DNA of 24,000 nucleotides from Candidatus Caldarchaeum subterraneum (GTDB lineage Archaea > Thermoproteota > Nitrososphaeria_A > Caldarchaeales > Caldarchaeaceae). The notes under the pieces are model-generated. The model made no database searches, had not been told where the DNA came from, and worked only from the letters and a program-made list of their open reading frames with translations. The position numbers and the translations under genes are program-made. Location of the stretch: positions 678,800-702,799 of the forward strand of contig BA000048.1 in the NCBI GenBank assembly GCA_000270325.1, read 5' to 3'. This document shows, piece after piece, positions 13,766 through 16,147 of this stretch; position 1 is the first letter of the stretch; the number at the start of each line of letters is the position of its first letter.

Positions 13766-14215
13766 GCCTAACAATGGTTTTAAAGCCCAGACCAGATAAA
13801 TACATCAGAAAACTCTCCCAATCCTATCTGCTCGCCTCGACCACGAAATAAGGGTCATTATCAAAAGCCTTCCCAACATGATATCGACGCTGGATATAGC
13901 TTCTCATGGCTAGAGACGAAAAGATGTGTATTTTTTGGTCACTATGACGAGGTCTGGTTTTTAACCCGGTATTACCGCCTTAGATAGCCAAAATTTTCAG
14001 CTTCTAAGCCTCGGAGAAAGGAGGTATTACCCATTAAACCAATTATCGGCCAGGCAAAAGACCTGCCTAATTCCCGGAAAATTCGGCTCTTCAAGAGGTG
14101 TGGATTGACCGATATCAGCCAAGTTTTATCATTTTGACGGCATGTCTGAAACGTGGCTGGCTATGTTCAGCCGACTATGGTTTATTGCCTTATATGCATG
14201 TGTCTCCCTGTCTAG

Positions 14216-14938
14216 GTAGCCTGATTAGGGGTTCCCTAAATGAGGGCTACCGCATAGGCCATCCCTCATCAAAGCGATGGGGATGGGATAGGATAGGGAT
14301 GGACCCGGGGCAAACAAACCAACCAAACCCCATACACGCCTGAAACAAGGCGTCCACCCCATTATTGCTGTGGGGTGGCGGGGGTGGTTGGCTGGCACCA
14401 GGCCCTGCTCCAGCCCATGCGTCAGCCGCCCCGATACCCGGACGTGCTTATGCATGGCAGACATCCCCTGTGGCGCATGGGTGGGGAAGGCTTCGGACGT
14501 GCTTATGCATGGCGGAGCCGGGGCAGGGCCTTCGTGGCAGAGGCCTGCCCACGTGTCTCGACAAAGCATACCCGGACGTGCTTAGCCATGACGGGTATGT
14601 GGAGGTGTGTAGGCCGTGCTTAGCCATGACTACACACCCTCCCTAGACACAGTGGACAGGACAGAAGATGTTCAGGCGCTCCGCCAAAGGAAGCTCTCGG
14701 AGCCATCTTCTCCATGGGAGAGGCATGGGGTCTCTTCCATCGGATTTCTCCATCAAGGCGCCATGGGGGTGCTTAGATGGAGAGGCTTCAAACCCTATGG
14801 CGGAGACAGACAATAAACGACGACTCTCGGAGAAACAATCCCCCCTCCTTTGGACGCACCAGTCCCTGCGGAGCGGCTGGGTGGATGCGGAGCTCCGGGC
14901 TTCAATGAGCCCGCCTCCCCAACAACCACAGGGGGAGG
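14216..14938 (+). ncRNA. Unclassified GC-rich, highly structured RNA region (possibly a long 5' leader of the LAGLIDADG mRNA) with a repeated 17-nt hairpin module
   Basis: Sharp AT-to-GC shift at about 14216. Only overlapping R/G/A/P/W/C-rich ORFs appear in several frames.
Helices foldable by eye:
- 14240-46/14263-69
- 14351-61/14371-80
- 14414-21/14474-81
- 14489-95/14513-19
- 14521-30/14542-50
- 14567-74/14592-99
- 14601-12/14630-42
- 14663-70/14704-11, enclosing two mini-hairpins
- 14748-54/14776-82
- 14897-901/14908-12
- 14914-20/14932-38
G.U pairs are consistent only with the + strand. A TATA-like TTATAT lies at 14190-14195. Confidence 0.55.
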
Positions 14939-14941
14939 AAA

Positions 14942-15841
14942 ATGTCTTCCGAGTCCACCCCGGGCTCCCCCGAGAGGCTGGTGGGCGCCAAAGGGAAGAG
15001 GGGTCCGTATACTCCGACAGAGAAGCTGATGAAGGCCTATGATCTGGTTATCCAGCTGCGCCAGCAAGGGCTGACATATAAACAGATAATCAATGAGGTG
15101 GAGAAGACACTTGGTATAAAAATAACGAAAAGCCATTGCAGCTTCTGGTGCCGGCGAATTCACTCGCCATACAACCGGCTATACATCGGCGCCATTGAGT
15201 TTCTGCGACCATCGGAAGACCTCGCATACCTCATCGGCGTGCACGCTGGCGATGCCTATGTTACAGGAGAACAGTTCTTTTTACGTCTGGAGGTCAAGGA
15301 TAAGGATTTTGCCGATGCATACAGCATAAGCTTGTCGAGGGTTCTTGGAAGATATCCGCCGGAGCCGAGGCCAAACAAAGATGGTAAATGGGTTGTTGTG
15401 GTAGCATCTAAGGTTCTCTACCAATTGCTTAGAAAGCCTATTGACATCGACAGGATTAGGCCCTTTGTTGAGCATTGTGAACGATGTGTTGCGATGTTTC
15501 TAAGAGGTTTCTTTGACAGCGAAGGAAGCGTAAGTAAACTTGGAACCATAACAGTGTACAATACTGACTATCAACTACTAGTGTATGTCATTTATCTCCT
15601 GAAGAAACTGGGAATAGAGACGACTTCATACGCTCCGAAGACAAAACAACTAGCTGGTGGACCTTTCAGAAACCCGAGAACCGGCAAGACCTACCACTAT
15701 AACAAAGACTACTATTACCTACGGATACGAAGGTCTTCCAATGAGAGCTATTACAACCTGGTAGGATTTTCGATTGAGCGGAAAAAGCAAAGACTCGAGG
15801 AATACCTCAGGAGACAGAGAAGACGCCTGCCAGCCACCTAA
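14942..15841 (+). CDS. Double-motif LAGLIDADG homing endonuclease-like protein with N-terminal helix-turn-helix extension
   Basis: Strong SD (GGGGGAGGAAA then ATG). LAGLIDADG motif 1 is LAYLIGVHAGDAYV and motif 2 is AMFLRGFFDSEGSV. The N-terminal region of about 90 aa (YDLVIQLRQQGLTYKQIINEVEKTLGIKITKSH) looks like an HTH. Confidence 0.85.
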   Translation: MSSESTPGSPERLVGAKGKRGPYTPTEKLMKAYDLVIQLRQQGLTYKQIINEVEKTLGIKITKSHCSFWCRRIHSPYNRLYIGAIEFLRPSEDLAYLIGVHAGDAYVTGEQFFLRLEVKDKDFADAYSISLSRVLGRYPPEPRPNKDGKWVVVVASKVLYQLLRKPIDIDRIRPFVEHCERCVAMFLRGFFDSEGSVSKLGTITVYNTDYQLLVYVIYLLKKLGIETTSYAPKTKQLAGGPFRNPRTGKTYHYNKDYYYLRIRRSSNESYYNLVGFSIERKKQRLEEYLRRQRRRLPAT

Positions 15842-15847
15842 CCCCCC

Positions 15848-15856
15848 AATTTTTTC
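15848..15856 (+). terminator. T-tract terminator candidate after the LAGLIDADG ORF
   Basis: AATTTTTTC lies 7 nt after the stop. Archaeal terminators are typically oligo-T runs. Confidence 0.35.
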
Positions 15857-16147
15857 CCTAATCACATAGGAAAAGTAAAACCATGTTCGCTCTTAATCCG
15901 TATTTTGTGGGTTAGGGCTAGTCTATCTCCTACTATAAGGAGGGGCTCTTCATGTCGTAGAGGGGCTGAATTTCGCCTCCTACAAGGGGCCGAACAGATA
16001 CTAGAAGCAACACATAAAATACACAAAAAATGGAGCAAGAGCGACCATACTAAACCTTTACTCGTCATTGGTGTCAAATCCTTTAGCCAAAACCACGCCT
16101 TTAGAAGGCTTGAGCAACCCGTTTAAATGCATTCCGGCCGTAAACCC

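What the first reader, a model, noticed from the sequence alone, without database searches (positions are those of the whole stretch)
14190..15864. Structured RNA plus HTH-LAGLIDADG ORF behaves like a self-contained, intron-like or mobile RNA unit located outside any rRNA/tRNA gene
In archaea, LAGLIDADG endonucleases are known mainly from rRNA/tRNA introns and inteins. Here a double-motif LAGLIDADG ORF with an extra N-terminal HTH is free-standing, sits next to oriC, and is preceded on the same strand by the structured RNA.

- Possible translational control: the Shine-Dalgarno sequence (GGGGAGG, 14932-14938) is the 3' arm of a hairpin with CCTCCCC (14914-14920).
- Possible end-closing helix: the start of the GC-rich region (TGATTAGGG, 14222-14230) is perfectly complementary to CCCTAATCA (15856-15864), 15 nt after the ORF stop. 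A terminal helix of this kind closes archaeal introns and circular RNAs. My rough estimate for a chance 9-mer match between two short flanks is a few percent.
- Caveat: a T6 tract (15850-15855) lies just before the 3' partner and may terminate transcription first.

The protein could be a maturase or RNA-binding partner of the repeated hairpin module rather than, or as well as, a DNase.
Basis: partly seen in the sequence, partly recalled or inferred. Interest (0 to 1): 0.7.

Follow-up and report, generated by a model that had tools for sequence, protein, structure and literature searches.

The report
Mobile LAGLIDADG endonuclease gene, structured leader
This is a free-standing, probably mobile homing-endonuclease gene of the archaeon Caldarchaeum subterraneum that sits behind an unusually long folded RNA leader; it is not an intron, and its relatives in other genomes nearly always sit exactly at the 3' end of tRNA genes.

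Summary
The sequence features are real. There is an intact 299-aa I-DmoI-like double-motif LAGLIDADG ORF with an N-terminal three-helix HTH-like domain (14942-15841). Upstream lies a strongly folding GC-rich region (14200-14941, z about -9), a hairpin covering the Shine-Dalgarno sequence, a T6 tract, and the 9-bp complementarity.

The intron-like or circular-RNA reading is not supported:
- No gene is interrupted and no BHB motif is present.
- There is no Rfam match.
- A paralog in the same genome lacks the whole structured region and the 5' arm.
- The 3' arm lies in a tail conserved for other reasons.

The ORF belongs to a large family in Nitrososphaerota. The family is multi-copy in Caldarchaeales, and its copies often end contigs. 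In about 36 of 81 loci the conserved 3' tail abuts the 3' end of a convergent tRNA gene, of many different identities. The window copy is an exception: it lies in a mosaic of other mobile DNA, about 1 kb from oriC.

The structured RNA is most likely a lineage-specific 720-nt 5' leader. Its proximal 250 nt keeps its helices through G-U-type changes in the one relative available.

This looks like a new variant of a free-standing homing-endonuclease element, functionally analogous to phage T4 SegB.

The parts
13603..13757 (+). A repeated block of about 150 nt. It holds the end of a 31-codon ORF plus two TATA-like boxes (CCTTTAAATACC at 13663 and CCTTTAAACACC at 13729). It marks the upstream edge of the LAGLIDADG unit in this genome.
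   Evidence: It is 80-85% identical to an inverted copy at 12786-12960 and to L082 27-170, which lies directly upstream of the paralog ORF.
13758..14187 (+). AT-rich, unstructured spacer that is absent from the paralog locus. It contains a T7 run (13933-13939) that would stop transcripts coming from the block.
   Evidence: sequence; z -1.1; absent from L082.
14188..14197 (+). TATA-like box CCTTATATGC, the candidate promoter of the leader-ORF transcript. The inferred start is near 14216-14222.
   Evidence: Read directly from the sequence. Similar CTTTATATG boxes precede the ORF in PSS.bin.6 copies and in L004. The promoter role is inferred, not mapped.
14200..14665 (+). Distal leader domain. 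It is GC-rich and multi-branched. Four hairpin modules, GGACGTGCTTA(T/G)(G/C)CATG(G/A)C, lie at 14439-14461, 14494-14516, 14573-14595 and 14612-14630.
   Evidence: z -6.7 on the + strand; -5.0 on the - strand. No relative was found anywhere.
14689..14896 (+). Proximal leader domain, closed by the helix 14689-14697 / 14888-14896. It contains two long hairpins, 14711-14744 and 14746-14784.
   Evidence: In L001, 14 of 19 variable pairs are kept on the + strand, against 3 of 19 if read from the other strand. ORF controls kept 29 pairs and broke 57.
14897..14938 (+). Two terminal hairpins: GGGCUU-CAAU-GAGCCC (14897-14912), and the hairpin that pairs the SD GGGGAGG (14932-14938) with CCUCCCC (14914-14920).
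   Evidence: The sequence is identical in L001, so there is no covariation test.
14942..15841 (+). HTH-LAGLIDADG endonuclease gene (BAJ50585.1, 299 aa). It has a three-helix HTH-like domain at about residues 26-70 and an I-DmoI-like double LAGLIDADG core at residues 92-294. D104 and E194 are the catalytic residues.
15842..15875 (+). Conserved 3' tail, CCCCCCAATTTTTTCCCTAATCACATAGGAAAAG. It carries T6 on the + strand and T-runs on the - strand, so it is probably a two-way terminator.
   Evidence: Conserved in L001, L082 and L004. The equivalent tails of other copies end 0-2 nt from a tRNA 3' end.
11436..11469 (-). Solo inverted copy of the LAGLIDADG end and tail motif (GCCTGCCAGCC..CCCCTATTTTTTCCCT).
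   Evidence: 86% identity over 36 nt to 15825-15859.

Best explanation
The feature is one copy of a free-standing, DNA-level mobile homing-endonuclease gene.

**The protein.** It is a monomeric I-DmoI-type LAGLIDADG nuclease with both catalytic acidic residues, plus an N-terminal helix-turn-helix-like domain.

**The family.** In Caldarchaeales it is dispersed in many copies of roughly 1.3-1.5 kb. Each unit has a TATA-like box, a leader of variable length, the ORF and a 40-70-nt tail. The normal site is immediately 3' of a tRNA gene, with the ORF convergent to the tRNA.

**Inferred targeting mechanism.** The enzyme recognises the part of tRNA genes that all of them share, namely the T-arm and acceptor end. 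The HTH domain probably helps in this. The enzyme cuts at the 3' boundary of the tRNA gene, so repair copies the gene there. The GIY-YIG enzyme SegB of phage T4 works this way.

**The window copy.** It is an off-target or rearranged copy. It lies between fragments of another insertion element (the 'a/b' element of Sugahara et al. 2012), about 1 kb from oriC.

**The GC-rich structured region.** It is the 720-nt 5' leader of this copy's mRNA. Transcription starts from a TATA-like box at 14188 and ends at the T6 tract after the ORF. Inferred function: cis-acting control that keeps translation of a potentially toxic nuclease low. The last hairpin buries the Shine-Dalgarno sequence, and two closed domains upstream stabilise or modulate it.

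**Shown versus inferred.**
- Shown: the fold, the family, the copy number, the tRNA junctions, the absence of the leader from a paralog, and strand-specific structure conservation in the proximal leader.
- Inferred: the transcript ends, the target recognition and the regulatory role.
For: **Protein**
- Pfam LAGLIDADG_3.
- Profile hits to I-DmoI, I-Tsp061I and PI-PfuI.
- AF2 model with pLDDT 86; the top Foldseek hit is I-DmoI.
- D104 is invariant and E194 is E in 51 and D in 1 of 52 intact members.

**Mobility**
- The genome-contig scan found 141 related stretches. The 80 kept include at least 7 from MAG HR02 and at least 15 from PSS.bin.6, and many end contigs.
- Copies within one genome share 100-400 nt upstream and 100-150 nt downstream, but nothing beyond that.
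- The window copy, L001 and L082 lie in three unrelated contexts.

**tRNA link**
- A convergent tRNA lies directly after the tail in 27 of the first 60 loci and in 8 more of the remaining set, plus L082.
- In PSS.bin.6 the same tail ends 0-2 nt from the discriminator base of nine different tRNAs.
- Precedent: SegB recognises GGTTCRANTCC and cuts at tRNA 3' ends (PMC2330249).

**Leader**
- z -9.1.
- There is no T-run of 5 or more between 14220 and 15850.
- The + strand folds better than the - strand.
- Between the window and L001, 14 pairs are kept and 5 broken on the + strand, 3 kept and 16 broken on the - strand, against 29 kept and 57 broken in ORF controls.
- The SD hairpin is conserved.
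- RBS-sequestering hairpins control I-TevI, segB and mobE (PMC2988022).
Against: - No transcript data exist, so the promoter, the 5' end and co-transcription are all inferred.
- An AATAAA box at 14813, conserved in L001, could be a nearer promoter. That would leave the distal domain outside the mRNA.
- Structure conservation rests on only two sequences, and only for the proximal 250 nt. The distal domain with the modules has no relative at all.
- The paralog and most family members do without such a leader, so it is not needed for the gene to persist.
- The window copy and L001 are not next to a tRNA.
- Target recognition is untested. A nuclease that cut every tRNA gene would be dangerous, so the tRNA association could instead reflect tolerated insertion sites.
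Confidence: 0.6

Rival explanations
1. The RNA plus the ORF form an intron-like or circularising RNA unit, closed by the 14222/15856 helix, and the protein may act as a maturase.
For: The 9-bp perfect complementarity lies at the two ends of the presumed transcript, with an empirical chance of 1.9% for fixed zones. The RNA is strongly structured. Related LAGLIDADG enzymes are intron-encoded. This genome does carry a group I intron in its 23S rRNA (PMC6125680).
Against: - No Rfam intron or other match, even at E up to 10.
- No interrupted gene, and no bulges next to the helix.
- The 5' arm is used in a local hairpin of -24 kcal/mol.
- The paralog lacks the 5' arm and has a changed 3' arm.
- The tail holding the 3' arm is conserved in copies that abut a convergent tRNA.
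- T6 lies just before the 3' arm.
- None of 81 loci lies in an rRNA gene.
Confidence: 0.04
2. The structured region is a functional RNA in its own right. It could be a separate or processed ncRNA, or an RNA partner that forms a particle with the HTH-LAGLIDADG protein, with the hairpin modules as binding sites. Under this model it is not merely a translational control leader.
For: A length of 720 nt is far more than SD sequestration needs. There are two closed domains and four near-identical hairpin modules. Another lineage (L013/L017) has a conserved upstream region of about 500 nt with three similar hairpins whose loops read GCUNGA; 21 of 38 variable pairs are kept on the + strand against 8 of 38 on the other strand. 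LAGLIDADG proteins can bind RNA as maturases (established knowledge).
Against: The RNA is confined to one sub-lineage. A 68%-identical paralog in the same genome lacks it. The protein family is well conserved, whereas the leaders are unrelated in sequence. There is no terminator or other visible sign of a separate RNA 3' end between the RNA and the ORF.
Confidence: 0.14
3. The GC-rich region acts as DNA or is a passenger. It could be an inserted fragment of another mobile element, or a set of palindromic operator sites for the HTH domain, and the apparent RNA structure would be a by-product of inverted repeats.
For: The - strand also folds far better than shuffles (z -5.0). Relative to the paralog, the whole 1.15 kb is an insertion between the block and the ORF. 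The modules contain palindromes (ATGCAT, CATG). The surrounding 5 kb is a mosaic of mobile DNA. The L001 contig ends exactly at the boundary of the distal domain.
Against: In the proximal domain the substitutions preserve pairing only on the + strand, through G-U pairs, which DNA-level palindromes do not explain. The + strand is 22 kcal/mol more stable in the distal domain.
Confidence: 0.17
4. The protein is a domesticated DNA-binding regulator, like bacterial WhiA (LAGLIDADG plus HTH), and not a nuclease or mobile element.
For: WhiA appears among the structural matches. In Nitrososphaerales the gene is single-copy and syntenic next to tRNA-Cys.
Against: D104 is invariant and position 194 is E in 51 and D in 1 of 52 members; WhiA has lost them (established knowledge). 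In Caldarchaeales the family is multi-copy and includes fragmented pseudogenes. The HTH lies at the N-terminus, whereas in WhiA it is C-terminal.
Confidence: 0.05

Closest known systems
I-DmoI and related archaeal intron- or intein-encoded LAGLIDADG homing endonucleases (I-Tsp061I, PI-PfuI)
   Same: It shares the monomeric two-motif LAGLIDADG fold and both catalytic acidic residues. These enzymes are the best sequence and structure matches.
   Different: This gene is free-standing and lies in no intron or intein. It has an extra N-terminal HTH-like domain of about 70 residues, and some relatives carry a second HTH (PF13565). It is multi-copy, and it sits next to tRNA genes, not in rRNA.
Phage T4 SegB (a free-standing GIY-YIG homing endonuclease in the tRNA gene cluster)
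   Same: Both are free-standing endonuclease genes associated with tRNA genes. SegB recognises the conserved T-psi-C motif and cuts at the 3' end of many tRNA genes (PMC2330249). Here the element junctions lie at the 3' end of many different tRNA genes. SegB translation is also controlled by an RNA hairpin (PMC2988022).
   Different: The nuclease fold is different. The host here is a cellular archaeal chromosome, not a phage. The gene is dispersed to many tRNA loci within one genome. The target of the archaeal enzyme has not been tested.
RBS-sequestering hairpins of phage homing-endonuclease genes (I-TevI, I-TevII, I-TevIII, mobE)
   Same: A stable hairpin pairs the Shine-Dalgarno sequence a few nucleotides upstream of the start codon of an endonuclease gene.
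   Different: Here the hairpin is the last element of a 720-nt multi-domain leader in an archaeon. No alternative late promoter is evident, and no function has been tested.
The 'a/b' insertion sequence of C. subterraneum (Sugahara et al. 2012, PMC3293823)
   Same: It occurs in the same genome, is multi-copy and lies next to tRNA genes. The 150-nt block upstream of the LAGLIDADG unit is part of the upstream region I take to be 'a'. A LAGLIDADG-type tail lies downstream of the window's 'b' gene.
   Different: 'b' is a different protein family of about 281 aa with no Pfam domain; in the window it is CSUB_C0723. The structured leader is not 'a', and 'a' does not fold above background. The paper does not mention the LAGLIDADG genes.
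WhiA (bacterial LAGLIDADG plus HTH transcription factor)
   Same: It also combines a LAGLIDADG scaffold with an HTH domain, and it is a structural match.
   Different: In WhiA the HTH is C-terminal and the catalytic residues are lost. WhiA is a single-copy housekeeping gene in bacteria.

Membership tests
LAGLIDADG homing endonucleases (monomeric, I-DmoI type) | Two LAGLIDADG helices in one chain, forming the alpha-beta-beta-alpha-beta-beta-alpha double-domain fold | tested here: met
   Pfam LAGLIDADG_3 at E 2e-17. PDB profile hit to I-DmoI at E 1e-8. AF2 model with pLDDT 86; Foldseek gives I-DmoI at probability 1.0.
LAGLIDADG homing endonucleases (monomeric, I-DmoI type) | A conserved acidic residue at the end of each motif (the metal-binding catalytic pair) | tested here: met
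   D104 is present in 52 of 52 members. E194 is present in 51 of 52, with one D.
LAGLIDADG homing endonucleases (monomeric, I-DmoI type) | Site-specific DNA cleavage and homing into an empty allele | not testable with these tools
   There is only indirect evidence: many copies, contig-end positions, different contexts for close copies, and precise junctions at tRNA 3' ends.
Archaeal bulge-helix-bulge introns / circular RNAs | Insertion within a transcribed host gene (rRNA, tRNA or mRNA) on the same strand | tested here: not met
   There is no rRNA, tRNA or Rfam match around the unit, and no split ORF. In other loci the neighbouring tRNA is convergent and intact.
Archaeal bulge-helix-bulge introns / circular RNAs | A BHB motif (3-nt bulge, 4-bp helix, 3-nt bulge) formed by the two boundaries | tested here: not met
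   The only long-range pairing of the ends is a continuous 9-bp helix without bulges. It is not conserved in the paralog, and its 5' arm is used in a local hairpin.
Group I introns | A conserved catalytic core (P3-P9) detectable by covariance model | tested here: not met
   There is no Intron_gpI or other hit at the gathering threshold or at E up to 10. Subtype-specific models as used in PMC6125680 were not available.
tRNA-gene-targeting free-standing homing endonucleases (SegB-like behaviour) | The gene lies next to tRNA genes, with junctions at tRNA 3' ends | tested here: met
   This holds for the family: about 36 of 81 loci, with tails ending 0-2 nt from nine different tRNAs in one MAG. It does not hold for the window copy itself.
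tRNA-gene-targeting free-standing homing endonucleases (SegB-like behaviour) | The enzyme recognises the conserved T-arm motif and cleaves at the tRNA 3' end | not testable with these tools
   Inference only, by analogy with SegB (PMC2330249).
Cis-regulatory RBS-sequestering leader | The SD is paired in a stable hairpin that is conserved in relatives | tested here: inconclusive
   The hairpin is predicted. It is identical in L001, so there is no covariation. The next relative, L004, has the same SD but a different upstream sequence.

The most novel reading that the evidence does not exclude
The HTH-LAGLIDADG family is a previously undescribed kind of cellular mobile element. In this reading a homing endonuclease uses the universally conserved 3' part of tRNA genes as a multi-copy landing site, and so spreads through an archaeal genome in a transposon-like way. 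In some lineages, including this window, it has acquired a long structured RNA leader that either restrains the nuclease or takes part in its action as an RNA partner.
Probability: 0.3. Interest if true: 0.75.

Novelty: new variant of a known kind. Interest (0 to 1): 0.55.

Why it matters
**Endonuclease biology.** Archaeal LAGLIDADG enzymes are known almost only from rRNA or tRNA introns and from inteins. A free-standing family that carries its own HTH domain, multiplies within genomes and lands precisely at tRNA 3' ends would be a cellular counterpart of phage T4 SegB, built on a different nuclease fold. It would show how a homing endonuclease can behave like a transposon by choosing a repeated, conserved target.

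**tRNA gene evolution.** The family also bears on the long-standing question of why archaeal tRNA loci are hot spots of rearrangement and gene disruption, as in the Caldiarchaeum tRNA-Thr case.

**The leader.** A 720-nt structured leader is unusual for archaeal mRNAs, which are mostly leaderless or have short leaders. It offers a testable case of RNA-based control of a toxic nuclease.

**Possible use.** A compact thermostable nuclease with a bipartite HTH plus LAGLIDADG recognition could interest enzyme engineers.

Tried and rejected
- **Rfam and tRNA scans.** Rfam at the gathering threshold on the whole window, and at E up to 10 on 13600-16200, gave nothing meaningful. ARAGORN found no tRNA in the window.
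- **rRNA context.** Searches for universal 16S and 23S motifs in all loci found none in rRNA.
- **Group I intron idea.** It was prompted by PMC6125680, which lists an intron in this genome's 23S rRNA. It was rejected for lack of any model hit and because the family's copies face convergent tRNAs.
- **Sequence searches with the leader.** BLAST and nhmmer of the leader against 81 loci matched only L001. A covariance model of the two proximal hairpins also found only the window and L001.
- **Metagenome scan.** A two-module pattern returned 16 unrelated tandem repeats.
- **Viral-contig scans.** Scans for the module, for a proximal-leader motif and for the protein found only 5 unexamined module matches, about the number expected by chance, and nothing else.
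- **Spurious-ORF search.** A protein search with concatenated spurious ORFs from the RNA region, meant to catch miscalled genes over homologous RNAs, gave no hit.
- **Test of whether the LAGLIDADG is Sugahara's 'b' recombinase and the RNA is 'a'.** Rejected. 'b' is the ORF288 family (CSUB_C0723 and at least 5 paralogs), and 'a' is unstructured.
- **Reaching other parts of the C. subterraneum genome.** Attempts through the paralog proteins failed because they are not on record.
- **Flank conservation.** The idea that element flanks are more conserved than the ORF was not borne out.
- **Module motifs.** By-eye inspection of the hairpin modules for K-turn, K-loop, C/D and H/ACA motifs found no match to the consensus.
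- **Module-to-ORF complementarity.** A 13-nt complementarity between the module loops and ORF 15324-15336 is within chance by rough estimate.
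Full report
**Origin and observation**

The window comes from Candidatus Caldarchaeum subterraneum. 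The ORF product is identical to BAJ50585.1, which lies on the 1.68-Mb genome contig.

- the 299-codon ORF at 14942-15841;
- the CCTCCCC/GGGGAGG hairpin over the Shine-Dalgarno sequence;
- the T6 tract at 15850-15855;
- the 9-bp complementarity between 14222-14230 and 15856-15864.

The region 14190-14945 folds at -366.8 kcal/mol, with z -9.1 against dinucleotide shuffles. It contains four copies of a 19-23-nt hairpin module. oriC-like ORB boxes and cdc6 lie about 1 kb downstream.

**The protein**

- It matches Pfam LAGLIDADG_3.
- A family profile hits I-DmoI, I-Tsp061I and PI-PfuI in the PDB.
- An AlphaFold model (pLDDT 86) has a three-helix N-terminal domain at residues 26-70 and a double LAGLIDADG core. 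The best structural matches of the core are I-DmoI complexes, and WhiA appears further down the list.
- D104 is invariant and position 194 is E in 51 and D in 1 of 52 intact family members, including distant ones. An active nuclease is therefore expected.

**The family is mobile and linked to tRNA genes**

A scan of one genome per species found 141 related stretches. The 80 that were kept all lie in Nitrososphaerota (Caldarchaeales and ammonia-oxidiser relatives). There are at least 7 copies in MAG HR02 and at least 15 in PSS.bin.6, and many sit at contig ends.

Copies within a genome share 100-400 nt upstream and 100-150 nt downstream, and then diverge completely. No neighbouring gene recurs. 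Some copies are fragmented.

The unexpected result came from ARAGORN. In 27 of the first 60 loci, in 8 of the remaining ones and in the paralog locus L082, a tRNA gene on the opposite strand follows the ORF directly. The tRNA identities are diverse.

In PSS.bin.6 the same conserved tail (...CAAAATAATAACTAAT) ends 0-2 nt from the discriminator base of nine different tRNAs. In Nitrososphaerales the gene is single-copy and syntenic next to tRNA-Cys.

With roughly one tRNA per 37 kb, chance adjacency would be well below 1% per locus.

The closest precedent is phage T4 SegB. It is a free-standing GIY-YIG enzyme that recognises the T-psi-C motif and cuts at the 3' end of many tRNA genes (PMC2330249). 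I infer, but cannot test, that the HTH plus LAGLIDADG enzyme does something similar.

**The window copy in context**

This copy is not next to a tRNA.

A related element on an ENA contig (L001; protein 68% identical) shares three things with the window:
- the ORF;
- 253 nt upstream of it (window 14689-14941, 84% identical);
- 33 nt of tail.

Its surroundings are unrelated: an NTPase, RNase HII and fibrillarin.

The paralog of the same genome (P0003/P0121, locus L082) abuts a tRNA 3' end. Directly upstream of its ORF it has a 150-nt block that in the window lies at 13603-13757, which is 1.2 kb upstream of the ORF. Relative to the paralog, the window therefore carries an extra 1.15 kb. This consists of an AT-rich, unstructured part (z -1.1) with a T7 run, then a TATA-like box at 14188, then the GC-rich structured region.

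The same block occurs a third time, inverted, at 12786-12960, upstream of ORF288 (CSUB_C0723) on the minus strand. ORF288 belongs to a multi-copy family of about 281 aa with at least 6 paralogs in this genome. That fits region 'b' of the insertion sequence described by Sugahara et al. 2012, and its upstream 545 bp fits their region 'a'. A LAGLIDADG-type tail motif also lies 110 nt downstream of ORF288.

The LAGLIDADG unit thus sits in a patchwork of mobile DNA. The 'b' recombinase is not the LAGLIDADG, and the structured RNA is not 'a'; 'a' folds no better than shuffles.

**What the structured region is**

It has no Rfam relative. It has no sequence or covariance-model relative in any fetched locus except L001. 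Metagenome, viral-contig and protein-level searches found nothing real.

It folds as two closed domains followed by two terminal hairpins, the second of which covers the SD:
- distal domain, 14200-14665, carrying the four modules;
- proximal domain, 14689-14896.

For the proximal part there is comparative evidence. I took the fold of the window sequence alone and checked it against L001. Of 19 pairs that vary, 14 stay paired on the + strand, mostly through G-U pairs. Only 3 would stay paired if the other strand were the RNA. The same test on two ORF segments kept 29 pairs and broke 57. RNAalifold finds 76 pairs with none broken, but that structure was derived from the same two sequences.

The + strand is also the more stable one in both domains.

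There is no run of five or more T between 14220 and the T6 after the ORF. The simplest reading is therefore one transcript: a 720-nt leader plus the ORF.

Other lineages have different upstream regions. Some are short. Some are long and structured, such as L013/L017 with three GC hairpins. Some code for a second HTH. The leader is thus a lineage-specific addition and not a defining part of the element.

**Why the intron or circular-RNA reading fails**

- No gene is split, and no BHB can be drawn around the continuous 9-bp helix.
- The 5' arm is buried in a local hairpin of -24 kcal/mol.
- A match of this kind occurs by chance in 1.9% of trials with fixed zones and 15% of trials over the whole leader.
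- The paralog lacks the 5' arm altogether and reads CCCTATGCA at the 3' arm. L004 reads CCCTATTTA.
- The tail that carries the 3' arm is conserved across the family, where it joins a convergent tRNA and carries T-runs on both strands.

**Mechanism proposed**

Shown: a catalytically intact, dispersed LAGLIDADG gene family with precise tRNA 3' junctions, and a structured, + strand-specific leader in this sub-lineage.

Inferred:
- The enzyme targets the tRNA gene 3' boundary.
- This copy landed or was rearranged into a non-tRNA site.
- The leader keeps translation low by sequestering the SD, as described for I-TevI, segB and mobE in phages (PMC2988022).

Alternatives remain open at lower probability. 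The RNA could be a partner or an independent ncRNA, or the region could act as DNA.

**Verdict**

The best description is a new variant of a free-standing homing-endonuclease element. The tRNA-flank association of the family is the most interesting lead.

Noticed in passing
L002-L081 and L082 (for example L014 4897-4972, L037 4890-4965, L039 4901-4972): In about 36 of 81 loci, a convergent tRNA gene starts within 0-2 nt of the end of the conserved tail in the one MAG examined closely (PSS.bin.6), and within about 45-260 nt of the protein match in the others. Many different tRNA identities are involved. In L004 and L005 a same-strand tRNA lies about 210-240 nt upstream instead.
   Followed up: yes
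window 11578-12990 (- strand): ORF288 (CSUB_C0723) belongs to a family of about 281-aa proteins with no Pfam domain, 610 hits and at least 6 paralogs in this genome. With its upstream 545 bp, it matches the 'b' and 'a' regions of the tRNA-Thr insertion sequence of Sugahara et al. 2012. The function of 'b' is still unknown.
   Followed up: partly
window 12786-12960 (-), 13603-13757 (+); L082 27-170: A 150-nt block with two TATA-like boxes and a highly conserved core (GGAGGCCGAAATACTGTTTATCCAC) occurs three times. It lies upstream of either a 'b' gene or a LAGLIDADG gene. It may be a shared promoter or an element end.
   Followed up: partly
window 11436-11469 (-): A solo inverted copy of the LAGLIDADG C-terminal and tail motif lies 110 nt after the stop of ORF288. 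Together with the tail at 15825-15859, it forms inverted repeats around a 4.4-kb low-GC segment.
   Followed up: no
L006 3672-4016: In MAG HR01, a fragment encoding the first about 109 residues of a 'b'-family protein runs directly into the start of the LAGLIDADG ORF. The two mobile families are therefore nested in another genome too.
   Followed up: no
window 15883-15909 and 16022-16048: A 27-nt inverted repeat (81% complementary) with a 112-nt spacer lies immediately after the element tail. It folds with z -3.4. The spacer holds two CTCCTAC..AAGG(A)GGGGC boxes. Its function is unknown.
   Followed up: partly
window 16813-16835 and 16985-17005: ORB-like inverted boxes (GGTTTCCATAGGAAATGAAGGGG and CCCCTCTTTTTCCTATGGAATTGG) lie in the AT-rich intergenic region upstream of cdc6/orc1 (17127-18392). 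This is the probable oriC.
   Followed up: no
L013 3440-3915; L017 3450-3950: Two MAGs share an upstream region with a strongly conserved TATA-like block and three GC hairpins whose loops read GCUCGA, CUCG and GCUAGA. This is a second, unrelated long structured leader in the same protein family.
   Followed up: partly
L010, L016, L020, L021, L023, L026, L027, L029-L031 (N-terminal extensions): Many family members carry a second N-terminal HTH (GYGY..IWRMLKE..V.VSRSTV..YYY). It matches PF13565 in several database proteins, and that domain is typical of transposases.
   Followed up: no
window 11000-13800: This is a low-GC stretch (0.41-0.49) containing a PF18894 'phage metallopeptidase' ORF (13065-13529) and an overlapping 31-codon ORF. 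The C-terminus of the short ORF is conserved upstream of the paralog. The stretch is probably horizontally acquired DNA.
   Followed up: no
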